This document shows, in pieces, positions 51,503-64,000 of a DNA stretch of 64,000 bases. Source of the stretch: an uncultured Nitrospinota bacterium. GTDB lineage: Bacteria; Nitrospinota; Nitrospinia; Nitrospinales; JAJDAT01. The notes beneath the pieces were generated by a model that worked only from the letters and a program-made list of their open reading frames with translations, ran no database searches and was not told the origin of the DNA. The translations under genes and the position numbers were made by a program. Location of the stretch: the NCBI GenBank assembly GCA_964570665.1, contig CAZMZH010000001.1, positions 210 through 64,209 of the forward strand. The letters are read 5' to 3'. Numbering within the stretch: the first letter of the stretch is position 1; each line of letters begins with the position of its first letter.

Positions 51503-52399
51503 ATGCCAAGTATCCTAAGCCAAATAATACGAGCCCTCATAAAAGTAAAAAAGCCCAAGGGACAAATACGAAGCAAATCCGTGGAATGTTTGCGCCAAGA
51601 ATTCGAGTCCGATATGTCTCAATACAAATTGCCAAAAGATGTCCAAATTGAAAAGGTCTCGATTAAGGGTATCAACGGCGAATGGGTCGTCCCCAAAAAT
51701 GTCGATTCTAGTAGAACGCTTTATTATATACATGGCGGCGGTTTCTACGCCGGTTCTCTAAACACCCATAGAACGGCAGTCGCTCGGTTTGCTAGCGCAT
51801 TGGGCATTCGCGCTTTTCATATAGATTATAGACTCGCTCCAGAACACCCCTTTCCAGCGGCTGTTGAAGATTGTGTATCCATTTATAAATGGTTAATCGA
51901 AAGCGGCATCTCGTCAAAATCAATACTCATTGGCGGAGAATCCGCAGGAGCGACGCTAACGTTAAATACATTAACCGCATGTCGCGACCAACTGCCAGCG
52001 GGAGCGCTTTGTCTTTGTCCCTTAACCGACTTTGCATTTGCCAGCGAGTCTATGATCAATCAAGCTGAAAACGAACTATTTTATACGCTTACAGAATTGG
52101 AATGGATTCGGCAAATATACGCAGGCGACCAGGACCCCAAAAATCCAGATTTATCGCCAATTTATGCAAACCTTAAAGAGGTACCGCCATTGCTTATCCA
52201 CACCACCGACTCAGAGATGTTGCTGGACGATGCAGTGCGACTGAACATTAAAGCTCAAACCGAAGGGGTCAATGTCGAGCTAAAAGTATGGAACGGACTT
52301 TTTCACGGGTTCCACTTACTTCCCTTTTTACCGGAGTCTAAAACAGCGCTTCAGGAAATCGCAGCGTTTTCAAAAAGAATTTTAAAAACAGCTAATTAA
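51503..52399 (+). CDS. Alpha/beta hydrolase, hormone-sensitive-lipase-like esterase
   Basis: Oxyanion HGGGF, nucleophile elbow GESAGA, and a C-terminal D...H (FHGFH) region. Confidence 0.8.
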   Translation: MPSILSQIIRALIKVKKPKGQIRSKSVECLRQEFESDMSQYKLPKDVQIEKVSIKGINGEWVVPKNVDSSRTLYYIHGGGFYAGSLNTHRTAVARFASALGIRAFHIDYRLAPEHPFPAAVEDCVSIYKWLIESGISSKSILIGGESAGATLTLNTLTACRDQLPAGALCLCPLTDFAFASESMINQAENELFYTLTELEWIRQIYAGDQDPKNPDLSPIYANLKEVPPLLIHTTDSEMLLDDAVRLNIKAQTEGVNVELKVWNGLFHGFHLLPFLPESKTALQEIAAFSKRILKTAN

Positions 52400-52547
52400 G
52401 CCAGTTTTCTACTTTTTTGGATAAAAAAAATACTGATAACATTTATCTAGACTATCCATAATTTTTTTGGTATTTAGATTAAAAAACATAGTGCACCTGA
52501 TTATTCTTTAATCTTTTAAGTCACTCATCTCTTATCAAATTGCAATT

Positions 52548-54794
52548 ATGATAGATTCCTTAACTTATATTAAAAAAAAAATACTTACTGCTTACCAAAC
52601 ATTAAAAAACACACAATACTCAAGGTTTGTAAATGTTGTATTTTTAAAATCATCAATAATTAGTTTCTTTAGCCTTATTCGGCTATTCAATCAAAAATTC
52701 ATATTTGAATTAACTAAACCGCTAAAACCAATCCCCATAAATAGCATGGGAACTTTGAGAGCTAAAACTTATAATCTCATAGGCTTCCTAGTTGACCACT
52801 CCGAAGAATCTTCAGATGAACAACCTATAAAAAAAAAGCTTCGAGATTGGTTTTCAAAAATCGTTAATTATTCAATCATTCTCTCAATAATTTGTATTTT
52901 GTTAGAACTTGTCTTTGACTTAAATTACTCAAATCTTGAAAAGTTTATACTCATGATATTTTCATTTGAGTACTTCATTAAATTTTTAAGCTTCGGAAAA
53001 TCCTATTGGAAAGGATGTAAAGGAATTATAGATGCCATAGCCACATTTCCCTCACTATTAACATTTTTATTTGAGGCTAATCTTACTTGGGTTCGCTTCG
53101 TTCGATTAACCAGATTTGCAAGAATATTTAAATTATTAAATGTAGTCGGAGGAAAACCAATTGATTTCTTAAATTCCTTATTTAAAGAGCATAAAACTGT
53201 AATATCTCAACTACATGTTGAAATCAAATTAATAGTGGGTTCATTAGGACTACTTCTATTTGTTGCATGGGGACAAATTATGGATTCATGCAACAAAGTT
53301 GAGAGCCTTACAGCTTTAATTATTACCATAAAAATATTTTTGAATATTTCTAATAGTACGGAATGTCTTCAGTCCGATCCATCTGGATTCTTCAACTTCG
53401 TTGGAATTATTTACCTTGGCATTTTTGCGAGTATTTTAGCCGCAATTTTCATTGAAGTAATTCAAGTAAAGAAAAAATATCGGAATCAACTTTTTTTTAA
53501 TAATCATATAACTCTGATTTACAACTCAAGTTATACATCTGAATTAATTGATGAGTTTGAATCGGCAAAAGTTAATAAATTAGTCTTATTTGGAGAAAAA
53601 AGCCTAAAGGAAATTTGCGAAGAAAAAGACCTTTTTTATTATGAAGGCGAAATTACAAGCTTAAAAGAACTAGCAAATATAAATATTAATAAAGCAAAAA
53701 CTTTATTAATTTCAAATTTAGCTGATTTACTTGAACGAAAGGAAAAAGATTCCATCGGAAGCCTGTCGACACTCCAAAATATTAAATTTGTATTGGAATC
53801 GATAAAAAATGAAAATCCAGAAATAGAAATCTTATTTGATTATGCAGAATTGCAACCTCAACATTTAACTTATATAGAAGATTTGAGCTGCGCAGAAAAA
53901 TTCAATTCGCAAATTTTTAAAAACTTTTTAATACTCCTTCATATTTCTTTAAATGAAAACCAAAGAAAATTATTTGACCAAACCATATTTTCTGTGAATA
54001 CACAGATAGTAGAACTAGATAAAGAACCTTACAAAAAATTAGCGCTTGATGAGAATCAAGTAATCAACTTAAAAAAAGAAGGAATTCATATTGAATTAAA
54101 CAATTACTTCATCGATTTATTTATTGAAAATAAATTTTTAATTTTATCAGATGAAAAAAGATATAACGAGATAATCAAAAACTATGGGGATAAATTCAAC
54201 TGGGAACCAATATTTTCACCCATAGAAAATTTTGATGAGGAAACGATCAAAACGTTTTTAAGGAACAATAATTCATCCTATATTATAGTTTTAGCCGACA
54301 GTTCATTTAAAGATCAAAATGAAAAAGACATGGCTTCAATTGCTACTTGTAATCAAATTAGTGAATTATTAAAAAAAGAGGGTTTAGAAGATCAAGTTCA
54401 AGTATTCGTTGAAATCCTTGAAGATTTTAATGAAGACATATTACAAAACGTTTTAAGTAAAAACGGAAACTCAAAAGTTTTTAACACCTATAATCCAGAA
54501 AAACATTTAGCAGCTCTCTTGATTAAGGCGGCATTGTATCCAGGTTTTATTTCAATTTGTAAACATTTTATAGAAAACAATATGGGCTTTTTAAAGTTAA
54601 TTAATCATAGCAATTTTATAAAAAATAAAGATTACTCTTTAAATGAACTCACCAAATTTTCTTCAAATTTAAAACAGTTTTTTGGTATCTATAGCAATAT
54701 AGAAAAAGTTATAAAAACTGATTTTATTTTAAGTCAAGATATCCCAATCGAAGAAACTGATGAAATCGTTGTTATAGAATTAAAAAACTCTTAA
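52548..54794 (+). CDS. Voltage-sensor-type 6TM ion-channel-like protein with a large C-terminal CASTOR/POLLUX-like (RCK-like) cytoplasmic region
   Basis: S4-like WVRFVRLTRFARIFKLL (Arg every third residue) with flanking TM helices. The S5-S6 loop has no TVGYG- or TLESW-type filter. The C-terminus has HITLIYNSS... and SSYIIVLADSS...VQVFVEILED blocks resembling CASTOR/POLLUX RCK halves. Very low GC. Confidence 0.6.
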   Translation: MIDSLTYIKKKILTAYQTLKNTQYSRFVNVVFLKSSIISFFSLIRLFNQKFIFELTKPLKPIPINSMGTLRAKTYNLIGFLVDHSEESSDEQPIKKKLRDWFSKIVNYSIILSIICILLELVFDLNYSNLEKFILMIFSFEYFIKFLSFGKSYWKGCKGIIDAIATFPSLLTFLFEANLTWVRFVRLTRFARIFKLLNVVGGKPIDFLNSLFKEHKTVISQLHVEIKLIVGSLGLLLFVAWGQIMDSCNKVESLTALIITIKIFLNISNSTECLQSDPSGFFNFVGIIYLGIFASILAAIFIEVIQVKKKYRNQLFFNNHITLIYNSSYTSELIDEFESAKVNKLVLFGEKSLKEICEEKDLFYYEGEITSLKELANININKAKTLLISNLADLLERKEKDSIGSLSTLQNIKFVLESIKNENPEIEILFDYAELQPQHLTYIEDLSCAEKFNSQIFKNFLILLHISLNENQRKLFDQTIFSVNTQIVELDKEPYKKLALDENQVINLKKEGIHIELNNYFIDLFIENKFLILSDEKRYNEIIKNYGDKFNWEPIFSPIENFDEETIKTFLRNNNSSYIIVLADSSFKDQNEKDMASIATCNQISELLKKEGLEDQVQVFVEILEDFNEDILQNVLSKNGNSKVFNTYNPEKHLAALLIKAALYPGFISICKHFIENNMGFLKLINHSNFIKNKDYSLNELTKFSSNLKQFFGIYSNIEKVIKTDFILSQDIPIEETDEIVVIELKNS

Positions 54795-54887
54795 ACACAA
54801 AATTCATTTTTTGATAATCAAACAATGCACCAGTTTTTAATTCTATCAAAAACATTTAATAAAAAAAATTCCTTAACTTTCATGCCC

Positions 54888-54963: not shown

Positions 54964-55917
54964 TTGGACACGCAAGATGTTGAAAAACAAACGGTAACGA
55001 TTAAAGGGATCGAGCTGGCTTTAAGCGCCCCCGTCTCGGGAAATTATGAATGGATTGGTCAGGATGAAGTTCTTTCGCAAGTTTTGGCCTGCTGGTTGGT
55101 CGTCGCCAAGGAAGATATGCCCCTTTCTCCAAGGATCGTTGGCATGCCCGGTATAGGGAAAACCACACTGGCAATGGTTGCGGCTATGAAACGCAATCAA
55201 CCTTTATACATCTTTCAATGCACCAGCGACACCCGGCCGGAAGACCTTTTAATCACGCCTGTTTTGGCGGAATCGGGAAAAATTTCCTATCACGCTTCTC
55301 CATTAGTGAGCGCCATGCTAACCGGAGGCATTTGCGTTTTGGACGAAGGCAACCGAATGAACGAAAAGAGCTGGGCGTCTCTCGCTCCCCTATTGGATCA
55401 CCGAAGATACGTTGAGTCTATTGTGGCGGGAATCATGATTTCAGCGAAACCTGAGTTCCGCGCTTGTGTCACCATGAACGAAGACGAATCCACTTTTGAA
55501 ATCCCCGATTATATTCTTTCGCGATTGCAACCGACGTTAAAACTCAGCTCGCCCAACAAACAAGACGAATTAGCGATCTTAAAATATCATCTACCGTTTG
55601 CCGAAAACGATATGCTGAACCTAACCGTTGATTTTCTGCAAAGAGCGCATCAACTAGATTTAGACTTTTCGCCGCGCGACGGAATTCATATCCTGCAATA
55701 CGCGATAAAAAGACTCGCTCAGAATCCGAATCATCCTCTTTCTAAAGACGCAGTCTGGCACGAAGCAATCTCTAATGTATTGGGAGAAGAAGCGCTGGAT
55801 TTAGATAACCTCGCAGAAAGTAAAAGACGGGCGCTTGGCGGACAACAACTTCCTATGGGATTGAGCGATTTCTTCTTTGCCGACGGCAGTCCGTTACATC
55901 CAGACTCCGATAATTAA
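54964..55917 (+). CDS. AAA+ ATPase of the AAA_5 / MoxR-CbbQ-NorQ-like type
   Basis: Walker [12 protein letters not shown], Walker [12 protein letters not shown], and sensor-region blocks. TTG start with AAGGAG 7 nt upstream. Confidence 0.8.
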
Positions 55918-55932
55918 AGCGGAGACGATTCT

Positions 55933-57771
55933 TTGACAACCAAGACCGAAGATATTTTTCAACTGAGTTCCCGTATAAAAATCCTCCCAACCGTTCATGG
56001 AAGCGGCGATTTTGCGCGAACAATTCGGCAAAAACTTTTAGAAGTTTCCCCTGACTGCCTCGCCGTTTGTTTACCAGAGGCTTTTCAACCGCTAGTGGAA
56101 GAAGGCATCGACAAACTTCCCTATATATCGCTGGTAAGTTCAACCGAACCAGACGGATCGTTTAACTATGTTCCCATCGATCCTTGCCAATCTGTCATAA
56201 CGGCTCTGCGCGTTGCAATGCAAGAAGGAATTCCAAGAAAATTTATCGATTGGGACACATCGACTTTTGAAACTCGAAAAAACATTTTTCCGGACACCTT
56301 TGCGCTACGTAATTTATCTTATGAAAAATTTGCAACCGCGTTGTTGCCAACCGTAAAAAAACCGGCTCCCGACAGCTTTCACGATAAACGCATTCGGTGG
56401 ATGGCGTATCAAATTCATAAGTTGGAATTGGACTACTCAAACATTGCTTTGGTATGCTCCATACTCGATTGGCCATGGATTAAAGAAGCATACGACGCTA
56501 ACCTGCCTTATCCCCAAGGCGAAGAAAAATGTAATCTACCCAGTTTATTTGGTCTGGAAACCAACACCCTGTTTTTCGCGTTGTCAGAAATTCCTTATGT
56601 GACCCATCTTTATGAAAAAAAACGACAAGAACTAAGACCCGACCGCGAAGCGGCGCTGGATGGGGTCAAAGAAATTTTGTTAAAAGCCAGAGATCTTTTC
56701 ACCAAAAAACACAAAGTCAAATACCACAATCTAACGCCTCAAACCTTTCAGATCTTTTTGCAGTATGTGCGCAATCTTTCTTTAATGGAAAACCGGCTCA
56801 CGCCAGACCTTTACACACTGGCCAACACAGCCAAACAAGTTGGCGGCGACAGCTTTGCCGTGTGCGTTGTCGAAGCGGCTAGAGATTATCCGTTTCAAGA
56901 AGAATATAAAAAGGATTGGGATACATTGGCGTTGGGAATCGACCAAGCGTTGTTGGACGACAAAGTCGTAAAAATGAAAAATCGACTCTCAGAATTTCAA
57001 GTGGAATGGAAAAACATCGATCTCAAAAAAGACCCCGACGCCGATCGACAAAAGGAATGGAAATATAATTGGAATCCACACGGCCAATGTTCATGGCCGC
57101 CAGAAGACGATCAGATCGAAAGTCTCAACACCCACGTTCGAGAACAATCCAAACTTTTATTGAGTTCCGATCTTGCCCGCACAGAAAAATTCACTTCCTC
57201 GGTTAAAGACGGGCTAGATATAAGAGAAACGATTCGCAATTGGCATACCGGCGATATTTATGTCAAAGAAATTCCGCCATCGCGGGGTCGTATTGAAATC
57301 GTAGTTCTACTGTTTGAAGTAGAACCCGATCCTGCTAAGTTTTCCTGGAGGCAAACCTGGTACGCAGAGCACCTTGAAGAATCCACGCTATGCTTTTTCG
57401 CGACGCCTTATGAAGAAACTTTGATAGGCCCAGGCATCGCGCAAGCAAATTATGGCGGCTGTATGCTCATGTATCCACCGCGCCCCATTCCAAATATTTG
57501 GGAGGACCGACGCCTTAAGCATTCTGCAACCTTGGACGAACGATTATTAGAAGCCGCGTTTTTTCATTCCAGAGAAAAGCACGTAACCGTCGCTTCGCCC
57601 GGACCGCCAACGGCAAAATGGAGACTACTGGCGAAACGTTATAAAAAAAGGATCATACACATCCCGCTAAGCCGATTCTCCAATCAAACCATAGAAAAGG
57701 TTCGGCGGTTTCACGTATTGAACGGAAAAGAAATCCGAAGCTTCGCTTCGCGCTTTATCGAAGATATTTAA
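55933..57771 (+). CDS. Uncharacterised 612-aa partner of the AAA+ ATPase; the N-terminus resembles TraB/TIKI/DUF5682-type domains
   Basis: TTG start 15 nt after the ATPase stop, with GGAG upstream. N-terminal IKILPTVHGSGDFARTIRQKLLEVSPDCLAVCLPEA and HDKRIRWMAYQI resemble the GT.H..S....V...I....PD.V.VEL and ERD.YMA blocks of the TraB/DUF5682 families. No MIDAS/VWA motif was seen. Confidence 0.45.
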   Translation: MTTKTEDIFQLSSRIKILPTVHGSGDFARTIRQKLLEVSPDCLAVCLPEAFQPLVEEGIDKLPYISLVSSTEPDGSFNYVPIDPCQSVITALRVAMQEGIPRKFIDWDTSTFETRKNIFPDTFALRNLSYEKFATALLPTVKKPAPDSFHDKRIRWMAYQIHKLELDYSNIALVCSILDWPWIKEAYDANLPYPQGEEKCNLPSLFGLETNTLFFALSEIPYVTHLYEKKRQELRPDREAALDGVKEILLKARDLFTKKHKVKYHNLTPQTFQIFLQYVRNLSLMENRLTPDLYTLANTAKQVGGDSFAVCVVEAARDYPFQEEYKKDWDTLALGIDQALLDDKVVKMKNRLSEFQVEWKNIDLKKDPDADRQKEWKYNWNPHGQCSWPPEDDQIESLNTHVREQSKLLLSSDLARTEKFTSSVKDGLDIRETIRNWHTGDIYVKEIPPSRGRIEIVVLLFEVEPDPAKFSWRQTWYAEHLEESTLCFFATPYEETLIGPGIAQANYGGCMLMYPPRPIPNIWEDRRLKHSATLDERLLEAAFFHSREKHVTVASPGPPTAKWRLLAKRYKKRIIHIPLSRFSNQTIEKVRRFHVLNGKEIRSFASRFIEDI

Positions 57772-57820: not shown

Positions 57821-58076
57821 TTGAGGCGAGAGCCTGGCCTGAGCTTGTCGAAGGCAAGTGCGACCACCTTTAATTTACGCAAAGGCTCCTCGAAAAAACT
57901 AGAATTGCAAAACCATGACTGCGCGTCATCCTAAAGAGATCGCCATTGATGAGCTTGTGCTGAGCGCAGCCGAAGTAGTGAAAGACCCAGGTTAAGTTTT
58001 CAACATTCGAGTACGAGCTACAGCAAACCATTCCGCGCGTCATCCCGAGCTTGTCGAGGGATCTCGCCTTGGACTT
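57821..58076 (-). repeat. Two tandem copies (B1 about 57821-57945, B2 about 57946-58076) of the GC-rich modular repeat, in reverse orientation
   Basis: The reverse complement of 58040-58075 is ggcgagatccctcgacaagctcgggatgacgcgc (compare 63821-63853). The reverse complement of 57893-57945 is aggatgacgcgcagtcatggttttgcaattctagtttttt (compare 18280-18320). Both copies carry a third module, ccttcgacaagctcaggcc / cttcggctgcgctcagcac. Confidence 0.8.
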
Positions 58077-58117
58077 TTTTCTTCATTAGCTCTTAAAAAT
58101 CAGCGCCACTTATAACT

Positions 58118-58495
58118 ATGGGATTATTCGACATATTCAAAAAGTTTGGCGGAGAAACAGAAAAACCTCCTCCACCACAAAAAACGTCTTTAGAACTATT
58201 GGAAATCGAACTACAAGGAAATATGGATCAATTCAATCGGTTTCATAAAGAAGTAGAAATCGGTTTAGGGAAAGCCGAATATTTCAAAACGGAAGTTTGG
58301 GATCACTTTAAAGAAGAGCTGGCAGAACCACAAAAGCAGGCATTTGAAAATGCCTATGAATTGATTCAGAAAATGAACGAAGAGTTGAGCCTTTTAGAGG
58401 TCGAAAAAAACGGCTACATCAAAGGCAACATCTCCCGCGAATCCAAAGACGATGGAAAAGCTATTTTAAAAAAGGCGTTAAATAAAATCCATTAG
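58118..58495 (+). CDS. Hypothetical 125-aa helical protein
   Basis: ORF only, with no recognised motif. It is convergent with 58506..59267, with a 10-nt gap. Confidence 0.4.
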   Translation: MGLFDIFKKFGGETEKPPPPQKTSLELLEIELQGNMDQFNRFHKEVEIGLGKAEYFKTEVWDHFKEELAEPQKQAFENAYELIQKMNEELSLLEVEKNGYIKGNISRESKDDGKAILKKALNKIH

Positions 58496-58505
58496 AGTTA
58501 GTCCA

Positions 58506-59267
58506 TTATCCTCCATCTAAGGTTTTATTTTTCCAAAGGGATAATTGGGAGCTTGTATTAAACCCAATAAACCCTTTTTCTTTTTTCAGAAATTTTTCAT
58601 CCTCTTTATTTTTAAATGATAATTTCTGACTTTTATTAGAATTTTTATTTTTTTTCGTTTTATCTCGAAACTCAGGTTTTTGACCTCTATATATTACTGG
58701 CTTAGGGCCAAATTTTCCAAGCTCTTCAAGTGTCATATAAATATCATCCGTATTCTGAGCCGCATAAATTCTTAATTGAAAGTCAATAAGGTCAAATTTA
58801 TCCTTGTTCACATAAAACATTAAATCTCTATTTAAAGTTTCATTTGGCCGAATAGAATTATCGCTAAACGTCAGTCCTGAAGAAATTAATGAGAAATTAG
58901 CAGATTCAAACCCTTGTGATAAATTACTCTCCCTTCCATTTTTAAATATTTTCTCAAGTAGTTTTAAAAACTCATTTGAACTTTTTCTTTTAACCACTGT
59001 TTTGCTACCAAAAACGATATAATAACTTTTTAAAAGAAATAGTTCCTTTTGCCCACGATTTTCAAGCTTTAATTTGGCTAATATTGCCAAAGAGTTTCCA
59101 TCTTTTCCAACCTTTTGCAATTCAATTTTTGGGGTAAGGTTGGCAGATAAATCTTTTAATTCTAACTGAAAATAAAAAGTATAAACTGCCCACATTCCGG
59201 CCATCAAAATTCCTAAAAGTTGCATCCATTTAAGCGATCCGTCTACTATTTTTGACGATCTACTCAT
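58506..59267 (-). CDS. Hypothetical N-terminally anchored membrane protein with a Lys-rich tail
   Basis: One TM helix (WMQLLGILMAGMWAVYTFYF). Low GC. No recognised motif. Confidence 0.5.
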   Translation of the reverse strand: MSRSSKIVDGSLKWMQLLGILMAGMWAVYTFYFQLELKDLSANLTPKIELQKVGKDGNSLAILAKLKLENRGQKELFLLKSYYIVFGSKTVVKRKSSNEFLKLLEKIFKNGRESNLSQGFESANFSLISSGLTFSDNSIRPNETLNRDLMFYVNKDKFDLIDFQLRIYAAQNTDDIYMTLEELGKFGPKPVIYRGQKPEFRDKTKKNKNSNKSQKLSFKNKEDEKFLKKEKGFIGFNTSSQLSLWKNKTLDGG

Positions 59268-59377
59268 AATTTGTCCTTCAAACTTTAAAAGTTCGTAGAA
59301 TATAATTTTATGAATACAATAGAGCTATTCAGCCCAATGGCGTCTTTTATAGGAAGGAATATTCTGCAACACTAAGA

Positions 59378-59403
59378 AAACGGCGGTAAAAATACCGCCG
59401 TTT
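59378..59403 (-). terminator. Strong hairpin terminator after the 995-aa lipoprotein gene
   Basis: AAACGGCGGTA-aaaa-TACCGCCGTTT is a perfect 11-bp stem. On the minus strand it is followed by TTTTCTT. It lies 45 nt after the stop. Confidence 0.7.
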
Positions 59404-59447
59404 CAAATGAACTTGAAGAAGAAAAAAGACTAGTTATTCACGGGCAA

Positions 59448-62435
59448 CTATGGCTTCTTCGGCTTCTCCTCCGGCTTAATAGACTCACTAAGTACGGTTA
59501 CTTGAGTATTGAATTGAGCGACGTTCGACATTCTTCGTTGATTGTGTTTCGCAACAAAATCATGAACGTTTTGCGATAGGGAAGCGATAGCTTTAGTTTT
59601 GATCTCTGCCTGATTGTTAATTGGTTTCCTATCGGATTTTTGAATCGCTTTTTTCGCTCGGTTATAAAAACTATTTACAGCATTTAAACGCGTAATAAAA
59701 TCATTTGCAGGGTTTAGGTTATTTTCTTTAGTCGGTGTTAGTGGGGCTTTTTTGGTCTTCTCTTTATACTCCTCATCACGGGCTGCAACATCAAGTTCCT
59801 TTTCAAGAGCCTCAATGATATTAACCTTATCAGCGTGGGATTTAAATAATTCCTTCCAACCCGTTTTAATAAAATCTTCCAGCCCCTCTTCTTTGCCCTC
59901 ATTACCGGAAATCCCTTTGACCAAAGCGATTAAGTCTTCCTGAGCTTTCTTTTTAAATATCTTCTCAAACTTGTTCAATTGGCGCTTCAGAAGAGGTTCA
60001 GGTTTAGCGAATTCATTTCCCGAAGCATCTGTACCTCGTATAGAAGAAGTCATGTCCGCTCCCAAAGCGCCTCCAGCGCCAAAAAGAGCCAGATTTTTAG
60101 CGGACTTTATAATATCCTTGGGATCGGCCGACATATTCTTGACCGTCCAGTTGCCAATGTCATCCTTCATCAAAACGTAATTGGTATTGCCTGCGGCAGA
60201 GAGTTGGATGCGGTTAATACTCTGCCAAAACTGTTTGTCTATTTCTTGCTGAGTCTTAACCTTATTATCGCCCACTGCCGTACCCAATAAAGGAATACTT
60301 CTCATTCCAAATTTAGTGAGCAGGTTTTCCCACACGGTAGCTCCATCCTCTTGTAGACTGGTCGATGGAAAGCTGGTTCTTAAATAAGCCGAAGCCGGGC
60401 GCAACCTCACCATACCAGCCCGCACTTCTTCAGCAGATTTAATGGCTTTCTTTAAATTTTTAACTTCTGGCTTATCTTCCCCTTTATCTCGGATTTGCGC
60501 TATCAATTCGTAACGCAAACTCTTAATAAACTCATCTAACACTTGTTTGCTATTTTGAGCTTTATCTCCACCCTTAAGAGAAATTTTATTCCCGGCCAAA
60601 TCTAAACCTTGTTGTCGAGATAGCGCTTCAAGAGACTGAGCTCCGCTTTGCCTCTGATCATAACCCCATTGCTTTTGAAGTTCGTCTACCTGTACCGTGA
60701 TAGAGTTTCCCACTGCCTGTAATACTTGAATATAACTTGAGATCTTATTATCTTTTCCAAATAAAGTCGCGTTATTTCCAATAACCAAAACCTTTTGCGC
60801 AAACCGCGCAAGCGCATCAAATAGGAGGTGACGGGCCCTATCCTTTTCTGCTAAAGAAGTATTCCTTTCGGTCGTATTTAAAAACCGCTCAATTAATTGG
60901 TCTAAACCGGCATCCAATCTGCCGCCGCCTAAACTACCCGAGACTTTACCTAACAGCGTTTTTGCAGATTCTGCCGCCGCTTTAATAGCAGGTCTACTTC
61001 TTATTGGTCCCTTCGCAATCCCAAAACGGCTTCTCCATTGATCTTTATTGGCGCTCTTGGTAAACATTTCATCTGCTAAAAGTAGCGTTTGAGCAACCTC
61101 AAAAGGAGAGTTTTTAATTTGTTCAATTAAAGCATCCATAAATGCATCAACCTTTTTAGGATAATTTTTCTTAATGGCAAAAGTTTTCTTCCACGAACCT
61201 CCTTCATTCTTTAAGCCAGGAACCGCTCTAAGATTCTCTTTAAGATCATTCCATAATAATCTAATAGATTTATCATCTTGCCCTTGATGAAGAGCCATTA
61301 TTGTATATCGCGGCGACAATAATTTATTAATCAATGAAGGAACGTCTTCCAAAAATTCTTTATTATTTACGCTACTCTCACCCCTGCTCAGTTGGTTGGT
61401 GAGACGTAAAATACTTCTTAATAGGCTCTGAACCGTTTCGCGCGTTGTATTAAAGGATTGCGCTGCAGAATTCACATTTTGAATAAACTGAGATTTTTGA
61501 GATGAATCACCATCACCAAATAAAATATCCGCGTGATTTTTAATCAATAAATCGTTATCAGCCAAAGCCTTGAATTTGGATGTAGCGCTGGCGTGACTTT
61601 CGTCTTTAGAGTTAGCTAATCTATTTACCAACCCGTCAATTATTTTATCCTGCTCTAATAAAAGGAGATCGGTTAAGGGGCTTCCGATTTTATCTTTTGA
61701 CGAGTTTGATTCGATTGAATCCCGTAAAGCTTTATGCGCAGAAAAAATGCCTCCGATATCACGGAGATTTCTCTTGGGAGATAAGAAGCTTTCATATGCT
61801 TTGCGCAATTTTTCTACTTTTTCTTTAATATCATCCTTATCGATACCGTCTATATCTTCTAAACCAAAACGAGAATTAAAGTTTTTATCGCAGCAAATCT
61901 TGTCATAAGATTGCCAAACTTTTTGCAATTTATTACGTTGGCCTTGGTTGGGAGATAAAATAGAGTCATTAAGAAAGTAATCTGTAATGGATTTTTTAAC
62001 TATTAAAATATCTTCGGTAAGGATAGGATCCTGAAACTGGCGGTTATCATATAAACTTAAAATAGAATTTATCTGAGCCGCTTGTCCACTGCAAAACTTG
62101 TAACTACCATCAGGAATGATACCGCTTCGATAGTTTGGTTTTGCTCGGAAAACTGCCCATTTTGATAGACAACCATTACGTGCAACATCGGGTTTAGCAT
62201 TATCCTCCGAGTTTGGAAATTCTCTTTTCTCCAACTTATTACGCAATTGGATCAATAATGGTTTTGCTCCAATAGCCATGACTGCTGTCTGTTGAGCTAG
62301 GACATCTTCGTTATTTGCAAGAGGTCCTTTGTAAACGTCTACATCAATTGTTAGAGCAGCACAACCATTTAAAACTAAAAAGAAAATAATGGATATACAA
62401 GTTTTCAGTTGTCGGTAGTTTTTAGAATAATTCAT
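59448..62435 (-). CDS. Uncharacterised 995-aa lipoprotein
   Basis: Signal and lipobox FFLVLNGCAAL. Mostly helical and charged sequence with no motif I recognise. The start overlaps the upstream stop (ATGA). Confidence 0.75.
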   Translation of the reverse strand: MNYSKNYRQLKTCISIIFFLVLNGCAALTIDVDVYKGPLANNEDVLAQQTAVMAIGAKPLLIQLRNKLEKREFPNSEDNAKPDVARNGCLSKWAVFRAKPNYRSGIIPDGSYKFCSGQAAQINSILSLYDNRQFQDPILTEDILIVKKSITDYFLNDSILSPNQGQRNKLQKVWQSYDKICCDKNFNSRFGLEDIDGIDKDDIKEKVEKLRKAYESFLSPKRNLRDIGGIFSAHKALRDSIESNSSKDKIGSPLTDLLLLEQDKIIDGLVNRLANSKDESHASATSKFKALADNDLLIKNHADILFGDGDSSQKSQFIQNVNSAAQSFNTTRETVQSLLRSILRLTNQLSRGESSVNNKEFLEDVPSLINKLLSPRYTIMALHQGQDDKSIRLLWNDLKENLRAVPGLKNEGGSWKKTFAIKKNYPKKVDAFMDALIEQIKNSPFEVAQTLLLADEMFTKSANKDQWRSRFGIAKGPIRSRPAIKAAAESAKTLLGKVSGSLGGGRLDAGLDQLIERFLNTTERNTSLAEKDRARHLLFDALARFAQKVLVIGNNATLFGKDNKISSYIQVLQAVGNSITVQVDELQKQWGYDQRQSGAQSLEALSRQQGLDLAGNKISLKGGDKAQNSKQVLDEFIKSLRYELIAQIRDKGEDKPEVKNLKKAIKSAEEVRAGMVRLRPASAYLRTSFPSTSLQEDGATVWENLLTKFGMRSIPLLGTAVGDNKVKTQQEIDKQFWQSINRIQLSAAGNTNYVLMKDDIGNWTVKNMSADPKDIIKSAKNLALFGAGGALGADMTSSIRGTDASGNEFAKPEPLLKRQLNKFEKIFKKKAQEDLIALVKGISGNEGKEEGLEDFIKTGWKELFKSHADKVNIIEALEKELDVAARDEEYKEKTKKAPLTPTKENNLNPANDFITRLNAVNSFYNRAKKAIQKSDRKPINNQAEIKTKAIASLSQNVHDFVAKHNQRRMSNVAQFNTQVTVLSESIKPEEKPKKP

Positions 62436-63454
62436 AGTTTTTTCTCTTCTAAGTCTTTAACTCTAGTTTTAAGATTATCCAATTCTTTTTGTCTTTTAAT
62501 GTTCTCATTAAGAAGTTGTTCTGTATTATCAGTAGAAGTTTCTACCGCTTGAATAGCAGTTCCAGTATTGTCTACGGCTGATTTCGCGGTACTTGCCGAT
62601 GTTTCCGCCCTTTGATCGGCTTTATCTGCGGACTCTTTTGATAATTTTGCGTGGCCTTCCGCCTTAATCACCTCTGCTTTAGCCTCCTTTGCATCATTCT
62701 CAGCCTTTTTTGCGGATTTATTCGCCTCTAGAACTTGCTTGGCGGCTTTTGCTACTTGTTGCGTGGCAGTTACCACCTCTTGCTCCACTACCATCACCTG
62801 TTGCTGCGCATTTTCAAGCTCAAACTTATGATTCAGGTCTTTCAGTTGTCCTTGTTCGCTTTGAATATCAAGGAAAGTTTGAAGAAGGACATCCTTCACT
62901 TCGCTTTCACTCAACTCACTTTGAGCTTGGCTGATATCGCCTATAACGGAGTCCATAGCGCCAAAATATTCTTCCGGGCTAGCGCCCATTACGATAACCA
63001 AACGATGGTCGGCTGGCGCCTCGCGGAACCCTTCGGGTCCAAACATCACCATCCTACGCCCTGTTTTGAGCGCGGCCATTTGTTCATCCGTGCCTTTTTC
63101 AAACTGCGCGTTATTAGACTTGGAGGCATCGCCAAATGATATCCTAGAGCTTAGAGAATCCACCAGTTTAGCGGGAACCCAACCCGAACCGAATTTCATC
63201 AAACTAAACGAACTAGCCTGTCCCCGTACCGTAACGCGATAAACGGTAGGCGGTACCTGTTCCTGAGGATCGAACATTCCCAAGTAATAGACTTGTTCAA
63301 GTTGATGACCGGGAGTCGAACCTAAAACTGCCGTGGCGCCTATTGCACCACCAATGATTTGCCCTTCTGTAGAACATCCATTTGCAAATGGAATACAGAA
63401 CACAATAAGAAGAATTTTTAGTATTGAAGCGTGAATTCTTTTAAAAATCCGCAT
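62432..63454 (-). CDS. Uncharacterised 340-aa lipoprotein: glycine-zipper segment, globular domain, long Ala/Lys/Glu-rich coiled coil
   Basis: Lipobox IPFANGCS. GQIIGGAIGATAVLGSTPG is a glycine zipper. The C-terminal 150 aa is helical (AKAAKQVLEANKSAKKAENDAKEAKAEVIKAEGHAK...). AAGGA SD upstream. Confidence 0.75.
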   Translation of the reverse strand: MRIFKRIHASILKILLIVFCIPFANGCSTEGQIIGGAIGATAVLGSTPGHQLEQVYYLGMFDPQEQVPPTVYRVTVRGQASSFSLMKFGSGWVPAKLVDSLSSRISFGDASKSNNAQFEKGTDEQMAALKTGRRMVMFGPEGFREAPADHRLVIVMGASPEEYFGAMDSVIGDISQAQSELSESEVKDVLLQTFLDIQSEQGQLKDLNHKFELENAQQQVMVVEQEVVTATQQVAKAAKQVLEANKSAKKAENDAKEAKAEVIKAEGHAKLSKESADKADQRAETSASTAKSAVDNTGTAIQAVETSTDNTEQLLNENIKRQKELDNLKTRVKDLEEKKL

Positions 63455-63754
63455 CCTGAATCCTTTCCAATAATGAAACAGGTTTTATAGCTCCATGAGA
63501 GTCTTAAAAACCAGATACATATTTGCCTAAGCAAAATTAATATTTTTGATTTTTGGAGCTTATAACATTAATTGTAAAAACAAAAGTTTTTTTTTGGCTT
63601 TCGTACAATTTTTTTTATTATCAAAATAATCTAATGAAAAGCTTTGTTTTTTGGCTAGATCGTAATTGAAATAAAATATCGGCAATCGCGCTTTTTTCGA
63701 CGGGTTGAACAGACTGTTAAATCGTGCTGAATTAAGCCGGGTAAGGAATTAATT

Positions 63755-63952
63755 TTATTGAATCGAGGCGACCCTTCGACAGACTCTAAGGAAATAGAGT
63801 GGAAATATTTATTGAATCGAGGCGAGATCCCTCGACGGCGCTCGGGATGACATGCGGTGGGGACTTTGCAACTCTAGTTCCTTTTTCAATCAACGCGTGA
63901 AACGAGTCAAGAGATCGGAATGCCCCTTCGAGAGCCTCAGGGCAAGCTAAGC
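63755..63952 (+). repeat. Copy C (full three-module copy 63821-63950) of the GC-rich repeat, preceded by a partial module-1 duplication (63755-63780)
   Basis: ttattgaatcgaggcga occurs at 63755 and 63809. ggcgagatccctcgacggcgctcgggatgac, then caactctagttcctttttcaatcaacgcgtgaa, then ccccttcgagagcctcagggcaagc. Confidence 0.8.
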
Positions 63953-64000
63953 GGTAGGTACTTTGTTCGCAATGCTTTTTTTCGATCTTCAATTACTTGG

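What the first reader, a model, noticed from the sequence alone, without database searches (positions are those of the whole stretch)
59448..63454. Translationally coupled pair of large uncharacterised lipoproteins (340 aa and 995 aa): candidate novel envelope system
Both proteins have clear lipoboxes (FANGC, VLNGC). The genes overlap by ATGA, and the pair ends in a perfect 11-bp-stem terminator, so they form a discrete two-gene unit. The first combines a glycine-zipper segment, a globular domain (YYLGMFDPQEQVPPTVYRVTVRGQASSF...) and a ~150-aa Ala/Lys/Glu coiled coil. The second is a 995-aa mostly helical protein with no catalytic or binding motif I can recognise. A coiled-coil lipoprotein coupled to a giant lipoprotein suggests a periplasm-spanning or surface-exposed scaffold. 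I cannot match it to any described family from sequence alone.
Basis: partly seen in the sequence, partly recalled or inferred. Interest (0 to 1): 0.7.

Follow-up and report, generated by a model that had tools for sequence, protein, structure and literature searches.

The report
Undescribed obligate lipoprotein pair, envelope module
Two adjacent genes in this Nitrospinota genome encode a small and a very large membrane-anchored lipoprotein that always occur together in bacteria from at least eight phyla yet match no described family or solved structure, so they are a real, previously undescribed cell-envelope module whose function still has to be found by experiment.

Summary
Two minus-strand genes (63454-62432, 340 aa; 62435-59448, 995 aa) overlap by ATGA and end at a 12-bp-stem terminator. 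Both encode lipoproteins: the lipobox Cys is invariant across each family.

No library explains either protein. Pfam, NCBIfam, PADLOC, PHROGs, PDB sequence profiles and Foldseek gave only coiled-coil noise.

The pairing is absolute in both directions. Every one of about 130 testable loci from species-representative genomes has the small gene directly upstream of the large one. Half share the same 4-base overlap, and one species carries a true fusion. No third gene is conserved.

Hosts are Nitrospinota, Nitrospirota, Planctomycetota (including anammox), Verrucomicrobiota, Alpha- and Gammaproteobacteria, Desulfobacterota and Methylomirabilota. The pair is absent from plasmids, phages and the window's nearest sister genomes, so it is an accessory cassette.

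The conserved core is the small β-rich domain plus the large protein's N-module (CAVLTVDVDVYKGPL, directly after the lipid anchor) and C-core. Helical parts vary. The window's 125-aa heptad coil and 370-aa insert are lineage-specific.

Best reading: an obligate two-lipoprotein envelope complex (well supported) acting as a periplasmic scaffold or tether (inferred, weak). Function is unproven.

The parts
62432..63454 (-). Gene for the small lipoprotein (340 aa including signal peptide)
   Evidence: ORF; 835 homologs; 387 hits among 1.84e9 representatives. The 340-aa start gives a proper n-region/h-region signal peptide; the 323-aa gene call does not.
63374..63454 (-). Small protein aa 1-27: signal peptide and lipobox (F-A-N-G-C27)
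   Evidence: C27 invariant in 61/61 sequences; Cys present in 113/120 hits, -1 = G/A/S in 110 of them.
63305..63373 (-). Small protein aa 28-50: Gly-rich segment (GxxxGxxxG), membrane-proximal tether
   Evidence: Sequence; family consensus IxGGxVGxTxxGGxSP; pLDDT below 50; no Pfam glycine-zipper hit.
62810..63304 (-). Small protein aa 51-215: conserved core (eight beta-strands and one short helix, then a C-terminal helix; invariant Y57, D62, R73, W92, D99, R133 and the FGPEGFR motif)
   Evidence: Alignment A1, about 45-55% identity across phyla; secondary structure from the AF2 model, pLDDT only 50-70 in the beta part.
62435..62809 (-). Small protein aa 216-340: lineage-specific heptad coiled-coil tail (Ala/Lys/Glu-rich)
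   Evidence: Absent in most homologs and in the syntenic relative L085, whose small protein is 225 aa. AF2 helices with pLDDT around 90. The periodicity measured over residues 186-340 is 3.48, power 92 against 44+-13 for shuffles.
62432..62435 (-). ATGA overlap: start codon of the large gene overlaps the stop codon of the small gene
   Evidence: The same -4 overlap occurs in 32 of 62 scorable loci from other species, plus 5 at -1 and 13 with gaps of 15 nt or less.
59448..62435 (-). Gene for the large lipoprotein (995 aa)
   Evidence: ORF; 126 homologs of 600-2016 aa, none with a Pfam domain.
62361..62435 (-). Large protein aa 1-25: signal peptide and lipobox (V-L-N-G-C25)
   Evidence: C25 invariant; 120/120 homologs have the Cys, +2 is A/S/G and never Asp.
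62028..62360 (-). Large protein aa 26-136: N-module. The near-invariant motif xxLT[VI]DVDVYKGPLAN...GAKPLL begins 5 residues after the lipidated Cys, followed by a helix and ...INSILSLY
   Evidence: Conservation profile; invariant V32, Y35, K36, G37, P38, P59; low pLDDT at 29-35. This module is missing from the natural fusion L050, where the small core takes its place.
60924..62027 (-). Large protein aa 137-504: variable helical insert, lineage-specific
   Evidence: Absent from the 606-aa ortholog P0003 in the syntenic relative L085; low conservation; confident helices.
60036..60923 (-). Large protein aa 505-800: conserved C-core. Helices 505-675, a conserved low-confidence segment (RLRPASAYLRTSFPSTSLQ), a three-stranded sheet at 743-769 (TNYVLMKDDIGNWTVK) and a Gly-rich loop
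   Evidence: Invariant N577, D733, W737, N741, K757, D758, G761, N762, W763; conservation profile; secondary structure and pLDDT. Retained in the fusion L050.
59451..60035 (-). Large protein aa 801-995: amphipathic helical tail, not heptad, with apolipoprotein-A-I-like repeat pattern at family level
   Evidence: PDB profile hit to ApoA-I at E = 6e-5. Tail profile scores 19.0 bits against ApoA-I versus -0.5+-2.0 (max 7.6) for shuffles. Periodicity 3.62 in the window, 3.68 for the family mean and 3.68 for ApoA-I.
59377..59404 (-). Intrinsic-terminator-like hairpin closing the two-gene unit
   Evidence: 12-bp stem with 6 GC pairs and a 4-nt loop; fold z-score -4.7.

Best explanation
SHOWN: the two genes encode an obligately paired small and large lipoprotein of two previously undescribed families. 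Both are exported and lipid-anchored by an N-terminal Cys, so they share one extracytoplasmic, membrane-proximal location. They are co-transcribed, usually translationally coupled and always adjacent, and they can be fused into one polypeptide. INFERRED (moderately supported): they form a stoichiometric complex. Its conserved heart would be the small protein's beta-rich core, the large protein's N-module (the VDVDVYKGPL strand that starts 5 residues after the lipid anchor) and the large protein's C-core. In the one natural fusion the small core replaces the N-module, so the N-module is most likely the docking element for the small protein. INFERRED (weakly supported): from this membrane-attached core, length-variable helical arms project into the periplasm. 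These are the large protein's insert and its amphipathic, apolipoprotein-like tail. In this window the small protein's 125-aa heptad coil is a third such arm. The complex would then act as an accessory envelope scaffold or tether, binding or spacing a second surface (the other membrane or the cell wall), and not as an enzyme or transporter. It is an accessory cassette and not a core envelope part: it is patchy across phyla and missing from the window's sister genomes.
For: Lipoprotein nature: invariant Cys with signal peptides in both families. Pairing: starting from the small protein, every locus among L005-L084 with room downstream has a large homolog next to it on the same strand. Starting from the large protein, 67 of 77 loci have the small gene upstream, 10 are cut by contig ends and none lacks it. 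Coupling: 32 of 62 loci at -4, 5 at -1, 13 with gaps of 15 nt or less. Fusion: the L050 ORF of 1165 aa is small core, linker, then large residues 435-863; there is no second signal peptide and no N-module anywhere in the 20-kb locus, and FGPEGFRE has become FDPEGYRE. The most conserved segments are the least confident in monomer AF2 models, as expected for interface elements. Helical elaboration is variable and recurrent: large proteins run from 600 to 2016 aa, and helical stalks were inserted independently in the small core's loop (P0309, P0335, P0292) or at its C-terminus in the window. The tail resembles ApoA-I beyond composition. No catalytic-type invariant residues or enzyme domains were seen. 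Extracytoplasmic setting: variant P0361 fuses the core to five Ig-like repeats. Accessory status: absent from plasmids and phages and absent at the syntenic site in sister genomes.
Against: There is no direct evidence for a complex, for which membrane holds it, for stoichiometry or for any phenotype. The scaffold/tether role is inferred from architecture only. The AF2 model shows helical bundles and not one long rod, and a 600-aa minimal version exists, so length may not matter. The fusion is a single case from a metagenome bin. The ApoA-I similarity is modest (19 bits), and the window's own tail periodicity is only about 1.5 sd above shuffles. Very high conservation of the small core (about 50% across phyla) is unusual for a purely structural lipoprotein and could mean it binds a universal ligand or has an activity I cannot recognise.
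Confidence: 0.45

Rival explanations
1. Lipid-handling or membrane-remodelling complex. The apolipoprotein-like amphipathic tail of the large lipoprotein binds or wraps phospholipid. The pair would extract, shuttle or stabilise lipid between the two membranes, or shape or release outer-membrane vesicles.
For: The family tail profile matches ApoA-I at E = 6e-5 against PDB sequences, well above shuffled and reversed controls. The family mean hydrophobic periodicity is 3.68, the same as ApoA-I. Both proteins sit at a membrane surface through lipid anchors.
Against: No Pfam apolipoprotein hit in 36 family members. Amphipathic helices are also normal in soluble helical bundles. The tail is among the less conserved parts. 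No lipid-transport genes (Mla, Mce, AsmA-like) recur nearby.
Confidence: 0.2
2. Surface-exposed lipoprotein complex: an adhesin, a surface-layer anchor or a receptor displayed on the outer leaflet of the outer membrane.
For: Large size and long helical arms. Variant P0361 fuses the small core to five Ig-like HYDIN/ASH/DUF1573 repeats, which are typical of cell-surface proteins. In the window the pair lies next to sugar-nucleotide and glycosyltransferase genes. Distribution is patchy and accessory.
Against: No recurrent neighbour for surface-lipoprotein export. The polysaccharide neighbourhood is not conserved. The core is highly conserved (about 50% across phyla), whereas exposed surface proteins usually diverge fast.
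Confidence: 0.12
3. Accessory defence or conflict module acting in the periplasm, for example blocking phage DNA entry or neutralising envelope-targeting toxins.
For: A two-gene cassette with variable genomic context and patchy phyletic distribution. It shows presence/absence polymorphism between close relatives in a flexible region. Occasional neighbours include HEPN, HepT, Fic and a transposase, once each.
Against: No significant PADLOC hit; the best is E = 0.0012 on the coiled coil. No plasmid or phage copies. Neighbours are mostly housekeeping genes. The very slow sequence evolution of the small core is unlike arms-race proteins.
Confidence: 0.08
4. Periplasmic enzyme or ligand-binding machine that I cannot recognise: the highly conserved small core binds a universal envelope molecule (peptidoglycan, a lipid head group) or is catalytic.
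For: The small core is as conserved as peptidoglycan-binding lipoproteins are, in my recollection. Its invariant residues are mostly charged or aromatic: Y57, D62, Q66, R73, W92, D99, R133, E141, R144, R151.
Against: No invariant Ser, Cys or His and no match to any enzyme or binding family in Pfam, NCBIfam or PDB. The large partner's N-module is equally conserved, so mutual interface constraint can explain the conservation.
Confidence: 0.15

Closest known systems
Braun's lipoprotein Lpp and OprI (alanine-zipper coiled-coil outer-membrane lipoproteins)
   Same: An N-terminal lipid anchor followed by an Ala/Lys-rich heptad coiled coil, as in the window's small-protein tail. Lpp length sets the inner-to-outer membrane distance in E. 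coli (PMC5736177), which is the role proposed here for the helical arms. One family member weakly hits Pfam Alanine_zipper at E = 0.0012.
   Different: The coil is a clade-specific add-on and not the conserved part. The window protein has no Lpp or Alanine_zipper Pfam hit and no C-terminal Lys for peptidoglycan attachment, since it ends ...EEKKL. Lpp has no beta-rich core and no giant partner.
Exchangeable apolipoproteins (ApoA-I)
   Same: The tail of the large-protein family aligns with ApoA-I's amphipathic helical repeats beyond composition and shares its 3.68-residue periodicity.
   Different: 19 bits only and no Pfam apolipoprotein hit. This is a pattern resemblance, most likely convergent, and not homology. 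The tail is poorly conserved in sequence, and the rest of the protein has no counterpart.
Small-lipoprotein plus large-partner envelope pairs (TssJ-TssM, LptE-LptD, pilotin-secretin)
   Same: The general logic: a small lipoprotein of about 200 aa encoded next to, and working with, a protein of about 1000 aa in the envelope.
   Different: No sequence or profile match to any of them. Here the large partner is itself a lipoprotein, helical, and has no transmembrane or beta-barrel domain. No secretion-system genes lie nearby.
Glycine-zipper outer-membrane lipoproteins (SlyB/PCP, 17-kDa antigen family)
   Same: A lipidated Cys followed by a short Gly-rich GxxxG segment.
   Different: No hit to PF05433, PF13488 or PF13441 in 61 members. 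The segment is about 14 residues, too short for the two-helix glycine-zipper hairpin of that family (from my knowledge of the family).

Membership tests
Bacterial lipoproteins (signal peptidase II substrates) | N-terminal signal peptide with a positively charged n-region and a hydrophobic h-region | tested here: met
   Small: MRIFKRIHASILKILLIVFCIPFANG|C. Large: MNYSKNYRQLKTCISIIFFLVLNG|C. The same layout is seen in the aligned homologs.
Bacterial lipoproteins (signal peptidase II substrates) | Lipobox [LVI][ASTVI][GAS]-C with an invariant Cys at +1 | tested here: met
   The Cys is invariant in both families and -1 is G/A/S in over 95% of sequences. The large family is mostly L-[AST]-G-C. In the window itself -2 is Asn in both proteins, which is atypical. 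No dedicated predictor (SignalP or LipoP) was available.
Bacterial lipoproteins (signal peptidase II substrates) | Actual lipid modification and membrane location | not testable with these tools
   Needs globomycin sensitivity or palmitate labelling and membrane fractionation.
Lpp/OprI coiled-coil murein lipoproteins | Match to the family profile (Pfam LPP or Alanine_zipper) | tested here: not met
   No such hit for the window protein at E up to 1. One of 61 members hits Alanine_zipper at E = 0.0012, and I did not compare its score with the family cut-off.
Lpp/OprI coiled-coil murein lipoproteins | C-terminal Lys for covalent peptidoglycan attachment | tested here: not met
   The small protein ends ...LEEKKL and the large protein ends ...KPKKP.
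Lpp/OprI coiled-coil murein lipoproteins | Heptad-repeat coiled coil after the lipid anchor | tested here: met
   Periodicity 3.48, power 92 against 44+-13 for shuffles; AF2 helices with pLDDT around 90. The feature is present only in the window's clade.
Exchangeable apolipoproteins (ApoA-I type) | Match to the family profile | tested here: not met
   No Pfam apolipoprotein hit in 36 large-family members at E up to 0.01, nor for the window protein at E up to 1.
Exchangeable apolipoproteins (ApoA-I type) | Amphipathic helical repeats with 11/3 (3.67) periodicity | tested here: inconclusive
   The family mean spectrum peaks at 3.68. The window tail peaks at 3.62 with power only about 1.5 sd above shuffles. 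The profile-to-ApoA-I score is 19 bits against a shuffle maximum of 7.6.
Glycine-zipper OM lipoproteins (SlyB/PCP) | Match to Gly-zipper or Rick_17kDa_Anti profiles | tested here: not met
   None among the listed families for 61 members at E up to 1.
Known envelope accessory lipoproteins (LptE, BamB-E, Pal, LolB, LpoA/B, TssJ, pilotins) | Profile or structural similarity to any of them | tested here: not met
   Pfam and NCBIfam gave no hit. PDB sequence profiles gave none. Foldseek against PDB gave none for the large protein, best E = 0.06 and TM below 0.12. The Foldseek result for the small protein is uninformative because its core was modelled at pLDDT 50-70.
Known anti-phage defence systems | Match to PADLOC models, or location on mobile elements | tested here: not met
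   The best PADLOC hit is E = 0.0012 on the coiled coil only. No tblastn hit in 72,556 plasmids or 50,697 phage records.

The most novel reading that the evidence does not exclude
The pair is a length-tunable periplasmic tether or spacer, a functional analogue of Lpp built from entirely different parts. It would be used by diderm lineages that lack Lpp and have unusually wide or elaborate periplasms. Nitrospirota, Nitrospinota and the two PVC phyla (Planctomycetota, including anammox, and Verrucomicrobiota) make up 43 of the 80 best genome hits by my hand tally of the record titles. Three more hits are Nitrotoga, which is documented to have an 'unusually wide periplasmic space' (PMC8494671). 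A lipid-anchored conserved core would sit on one membrane, and the variable helical arms (600-2016 aa in the large protein, plus independently acquired stalks in the small one) would reach and bind the opposite layer through amphipathic helices and so set envelope geometry.
Probability: 0.15. Interest if true: 0.85.

Novelty: categorically new. Interest (0 to 1): 0.58.

Why it matters
Envelope biology of diderm bacteria is built almost entirely on proteobacterial models. How the outer membrane is tethered and spaced in Nitrospirota, Nitrospinota, Planctomycetota and Verrucomicrobiota is largely unknown, and Lpp-type tethers are not expected there (from my own knowledge of Lpp's narrow distribution). 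This is a strictly paired lipoprotein module. Its small-protein core is conserved at about 50% identity across phyla, and it has no relatives in Pfam, NCBIfam or the PDB. That gives a concrete, testable candidate for a new envelope component, and probably two new folds. It occurs in cultured strains (Desulfatibacillum aliphaticivorans/alkenivorans AK-01 Dalk_0034, Pseudoduganella flava, Agaribacter flavus, Denitrobaculum tricleocarpae, Rhizobacter sp. OV335), so genetics and cryo-electron tomography are feasible. Even if the scaffold idea is wrong, defining both families would remove two sizeable blocks of 'hypothetical protein' annotations: about 150-390 clusters at 50% identity for the small protein alone.

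Tried and rejected
**Family libraries**
- Pfam, NCBIfam, PADLOC and PHROGs gave nothing on the window proteins.
- Scans of 61 small and 36 large family members also gave nothing. Only scattered sub-threshold hits appeared (THR4_C, EAD7, SUKH-4, coiled-coil families), with no consistency.

**Structure**
- PDB sequence-profile searches returned only ApoA-I for the large tail and nothing for the small family.
- Foldseek with the small model was dominated by the coiled coil (Vipp1/PspA, colicin, SMC arms, E at least 0.012). I rejected it as helix noise because the tail is clade-specific and the core was poorly modelled.
- Foldseek with the large model found no PDB match. Against viral proteins it found only tape-measure proteins at TM about 0.07 and rmsd above 35 Å, which I rejected.

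**Search for a third partner**
- All-against-all clustering of ORFs from 80 loci found only antisense shadow ORFs, generic histidine kinases and response regulators, and lineage-specific synteny such as Pyr_redox_2 and RND pumps.
- Pfam scans of the immediate upstream and downstream neighbours showed no recurrent family.
- The 253-aa membrane protein downstream (58506-59267) is not part of the unit. It lies beyond the terminator and is absent in L085.

**Artefacts set aside**
- Apparent large overlaps in L041, L049, L017 and L084 are upstream in-frame start artefacts.
- P0340 is a frameshift read-through, not a fusion.

**Other dead ends**
- Plasmid and phage carriage: none.
- Rfam in 58000-64000: none.
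- Literature: no paper on Dalk_0033, Dalk_0034 or B8FKC9, and generic keyword searches found nothing matching.
- I considered residue coevolution between the two families but did not attempt it, because about 140 pairs are too few.

Full report
**1. The observation**

The region holds two minus-strand ORFs, 63454..62432 (340 aa) and 62435..59448 (995 aa). Bases 62432-62435 read ATGA on the coding strand, so the start of the second gene overlaps the stop of the first. Forty-four bases past the second stop there is a hairpin at 59404-59377 with a 12-bp stem and a 4-nt loop. It folds far better than shuffled sequence (z = -4.7).

Both products begin with a charged n-region, a hydrophobic stretch and a Cys preceded by Gly. 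In the window the residue at -2 is Asn in both, which is unusual for a lipobox. The family alignments settle the matter. Cys27 of the small protein and Cys25 of the large protein are invariant. The residue before them is G/A/S in more than 95% of homologs, and the large family mostly has a textbook L-[AST]-G-C.

The window comes from a Nitrospinota (class Nitrospinia) bacterium: IspG is 92-94% identical to Nitrospinia MAGs. The same contig was seen in marine metagenome assemblies.

**2. Nothing known matches**

Pfam, NCBIfam, PADLOC and PHROGs give no significant hit to either protein. Scanning 61 small-family and 36 large-family members individually gives no consistent hit either. Profile searches against all PDB sequences return nothing for the small family. 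For the large family they return only apolipoprotein A-I, on the C-terminal tail.

AlphaFold2 models were built from family alignments.
- **Small protein:** mean pLDDT 74. The coiled coil is confident, but the conserved beta-rich core reaches only 50-70.
- **Large protein:** mean pLDDT 78. The body is a confidently helical bundle. The most conserved segments (residues 25-40 and 680-790) are the least confident.

Foldseek finds only coiled-coil look-alikes for the small model. It finds no match for the large model in the PDB (best E 0.06, TM below 0.12). Against viral proteins it finds only tape-measure-type helix noise.

An exhaustive HMMER search with the small-family profile against 1.84 billion representative proteins finds 387 hits at E ≤ 1e-3 and 151 at E ≤ 1e-30. 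The family is compact and isolated, with no fringe of named relatives.

**3. The pair is obligate**

A scan of one genome per species (185,579 species) with the small-family alignment returned 80 loci from many phyla. In every locus with enough sequence downstream, a homolog of the large protein follows directly on the same strand.

The reciprocal scan with the large family gave 77 further loci. Sixty-seven have the small gene directly upstream, ten are cut by contig ends, and none lacks it where there is room.

Of 62 loci where the junction can be scored, 32 have the same 4-base overlap, 5 overlap by one base and 13 have gaps of at most 15 nt.

No third gene is conserved. Clustering of all ORFs from the 80 loci, and Pfam scans of the immediate neighbours, show only generic two-component genes and lineage-specific synteny.

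One species (a Nitrospiraceae MAG, L050) carries a genuine fusion of 1165 aa. The small core with its lipobox runs through a helical linker into the large protein's C-terminal two-thirds. There is no second signal peptide, and no copy of the large N-terminal module exists anywhere in the 20-kb locus.

**4. Anatomy**

*Small family.* Members are typically about 220 aa. The layout is lipobox, a Gly-rich segment of about 20 residues, then a core of eight beta-strands and one short helix, closed by a C-terminal helix. Invariant residues are Y57, D62, Q66, R73, W92, D99, R133 and the motif F138-G-P-E-G-F-R144. Identity across phyla is 45-55%.

*Large family.* Members run from 600 to 2016 aa. The layout is:
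- lipobox;
- an N-module in which the nearly invariant xxLT[VI]DVDVYKGPLAN...GAKPLL begins 5 residues after the lipidated Cys;
- a variable helical insert;
- a conserved C-core (residues 505-800 in the window) with invariant N577, D733, W737, N741, K757, D758, G761, N762 and W763 and a small three-stranded sheet;
- a Gly-rich loop;
- an amphipathic helical tail.

*What is specific to the window.* The syntenic close relative L085 has a minimal pair: a 225-aa small protein without the coiled coil, and a 606-aa large protein lacking window residues 137-504.

Helical stalks have been added to the small core independently elsewhere. They sit inside its variable loop in P0309, P0335 and P0292, so elaboration with helical arms is a recurrent theme. 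Another variant, P0361, joins the core to five Ig-like repeats typical of extracytoplasmic proteins.

The window's small-protein tail has clean heptad periodicity (3.48). The large tail does not: it peaks at 3.62, with a family mean of 3.68, the value I obtain for ApoA-I. The tail profile scores 19 bits against ApoA-I, compared with -0.5 ± 2.0 for shuffles and 3.1 for the reversed sequence. This is a pattern resemblance and not homology.

**5. Distribution**

By my hand tally of the record titles, the hosts among the 80 best genome hits are:

| Group | Loci |
|---|---|
| Planctomycetota (including Brocadia-type anammox bacteria and Phycisphaerae) | 19 |
| Gammaproteobacteria (Burkholderiales, Nitrotoga, tubeworm symbionts) | 14 |
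| Alphaproteobacteria | 13 |
| Nitrospirota | 11 |
| Verrucomicrobiota | 9 |
| Nitrospinota | 4 |
| Desulfobacterota | 4 |
| Unclassified | 4 |
| Methylomirabilota | 2 |

All named phyla are diderm.

There are no copies in 72,556 plasmids or 50,697 phage records.

The pair is not a core gene. The syntenic 612-aa neighbour served as an anchor to fetch 79 further loci, and none of them has the pair within 8 kb. That includes the window's four nearest relatives, which are 90-93% identical in the anchor protein. Synteny with those relatives stops at about window position 58,490. Beyond it they carry unrelated regulators or oxidoreductases. The pair therefore sits in a flexible region and is gained or lost between close relatives.

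**6. Mechanism**

*Shown.* Two exported, lipid-anchored proteins that are always encoded together and are usually translationally coupled. They can be fused into one chain.

*Inferred with moderate support.* They form a stoichiometric complex whose conserved heart lies against the membrane. Three observations point to this.
- Both anchors are at the N-termini, and the large protein's strongest motif starts 5 residues after its anchor.
- The best-conserved segments are those that monomer models cannot place, as expected for parts that fold on binding.
- In the fusion the small core takes the place of the large N-module, which suggests the N-module is the docking element.

*Inferred with weak support.* The variable helical arms project from this core. 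The complex would serve as an accessory scaffold or tether, with the amphipathic tail binding a second surface.

I give the whole statement 0.45. The 'obligate lipoprotein complex of a new family' part would be about 0.8 on its own, and the 'scaffold/tether' part about 0.3.

The rivals are a lipid-handling complex (0.2), an unrecognised ligand-binding or enzymatic core (0.15), a surface-displayed complex (0.12) and a periplasmic defence module (0.08).

**7. Comparison with known systems**

Functionally, the nearest analogies are these:
- Lpp/OprI, a lipid-anchored coiled coil whose length sets envelope spacing (PMC5736177);
- exchangeable apolipoproteins, for the tail pattern;
- small-lipoprotein plus large-partner pairs such as TssJ-TssM or LptE-LptD.

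Membership in each was tested with profiles and, where possible, with defining features, and it was not met (see the membership table). The only family whose defining features are met is the generic class of bacterial lipoproteins.

**8. Novelty and caveats**

Both families appear undescribed. There is no Pfam or NCBIfam model, every source name is 'hypothetical protein' apart from one evidently spurious JGI label, and there is no literature on the AK-01 homolog Dalk_0034. I rate the finding categorically new at the level of family and architecture. The function is not established, so the rating says nothing about a new mechanism.

A speculative but testable idea concerns the host range. Lineages with enlarged periplasms appear over-represented among the hosts. 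I recall this trait for Nitrospira and the PVC phyla, and it is documented for Nitrotoga (PMC8494671). This fits a spacer role, but I did not test it statistically, and it could simply reflect habitat.

Noticed in passing
window 63754-63771 and 63808-63825: A perfect 18-nt direct repeat, TTTATTGAATCGAGGCGA, 54 nt apart, lies 300-370 nt upstream of the small gene. Each copy is followed by a sequence partly complementary to TCGAGG. It could be a regulatory or REP-like element. No Rfam match.
   Followed up: partly
window 52384-54861: A low-GC block (GC 0.27-0.33 against about 0.43 around it) holds a 748-aa Ion_trans-family gene (52548-54794). The block is absent from the syntenic region of sister genomes L274, L243, L245 and L085, so it looks like a recent insertion.
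   Followed up: partly
window 54964-57771: A MoxR-like AAA+ ATPase (317 aa; AAA_5/AAA_3) is followed 16 nt later by a 612-aa protein with no Pfam hit on record. The 612-aa protein has relatives at 35-93% identity in Nitrospinota, Latescibacterota, Nitrospirota, Planctomycetota and Fibrobacterota. The ATPase sits next to it in the window and in L085. This may be a second uncharacterised conserved pair.
   Followed up: no
window 58506-59267 (-): A 253-aa predicted membrane protein with no family match lies just beyond the terminator on the same strand, in low-GC DNA. It is absent from the syntenic relative L085, so it is not part of the lipoprotein unit.
   Followed up: partly
L050 9884-13381: A natural fusion of the small core to the C-terminal two-thirds of the large protein in a Nitrospiraceae MAG. 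The otherwise invariant FGPEGFRE has changed to FDPEGYRE.
   Followed up: yes
proteins P0309, P0335, P0292 and P0361: Small-family variants. Three have 100-330-aa Ala-rich helical insertions inside the core's variable loop. P0361 has no lipobox Cys and carries five C-terminal Ig-like (HYDIN/ASH/DUF1573) repeats.
   Followed up: partly
L015 and L058 (same Planctomycetota MAG, JACPWG01): Some genomes carry two copies of the pair on different contigs. L184 and L227 may be a second case in a Rhodospirillaceae MAG, but L184 is a partial match on a short contig, so it could be a fragment of the same copy.
   Followed up: no
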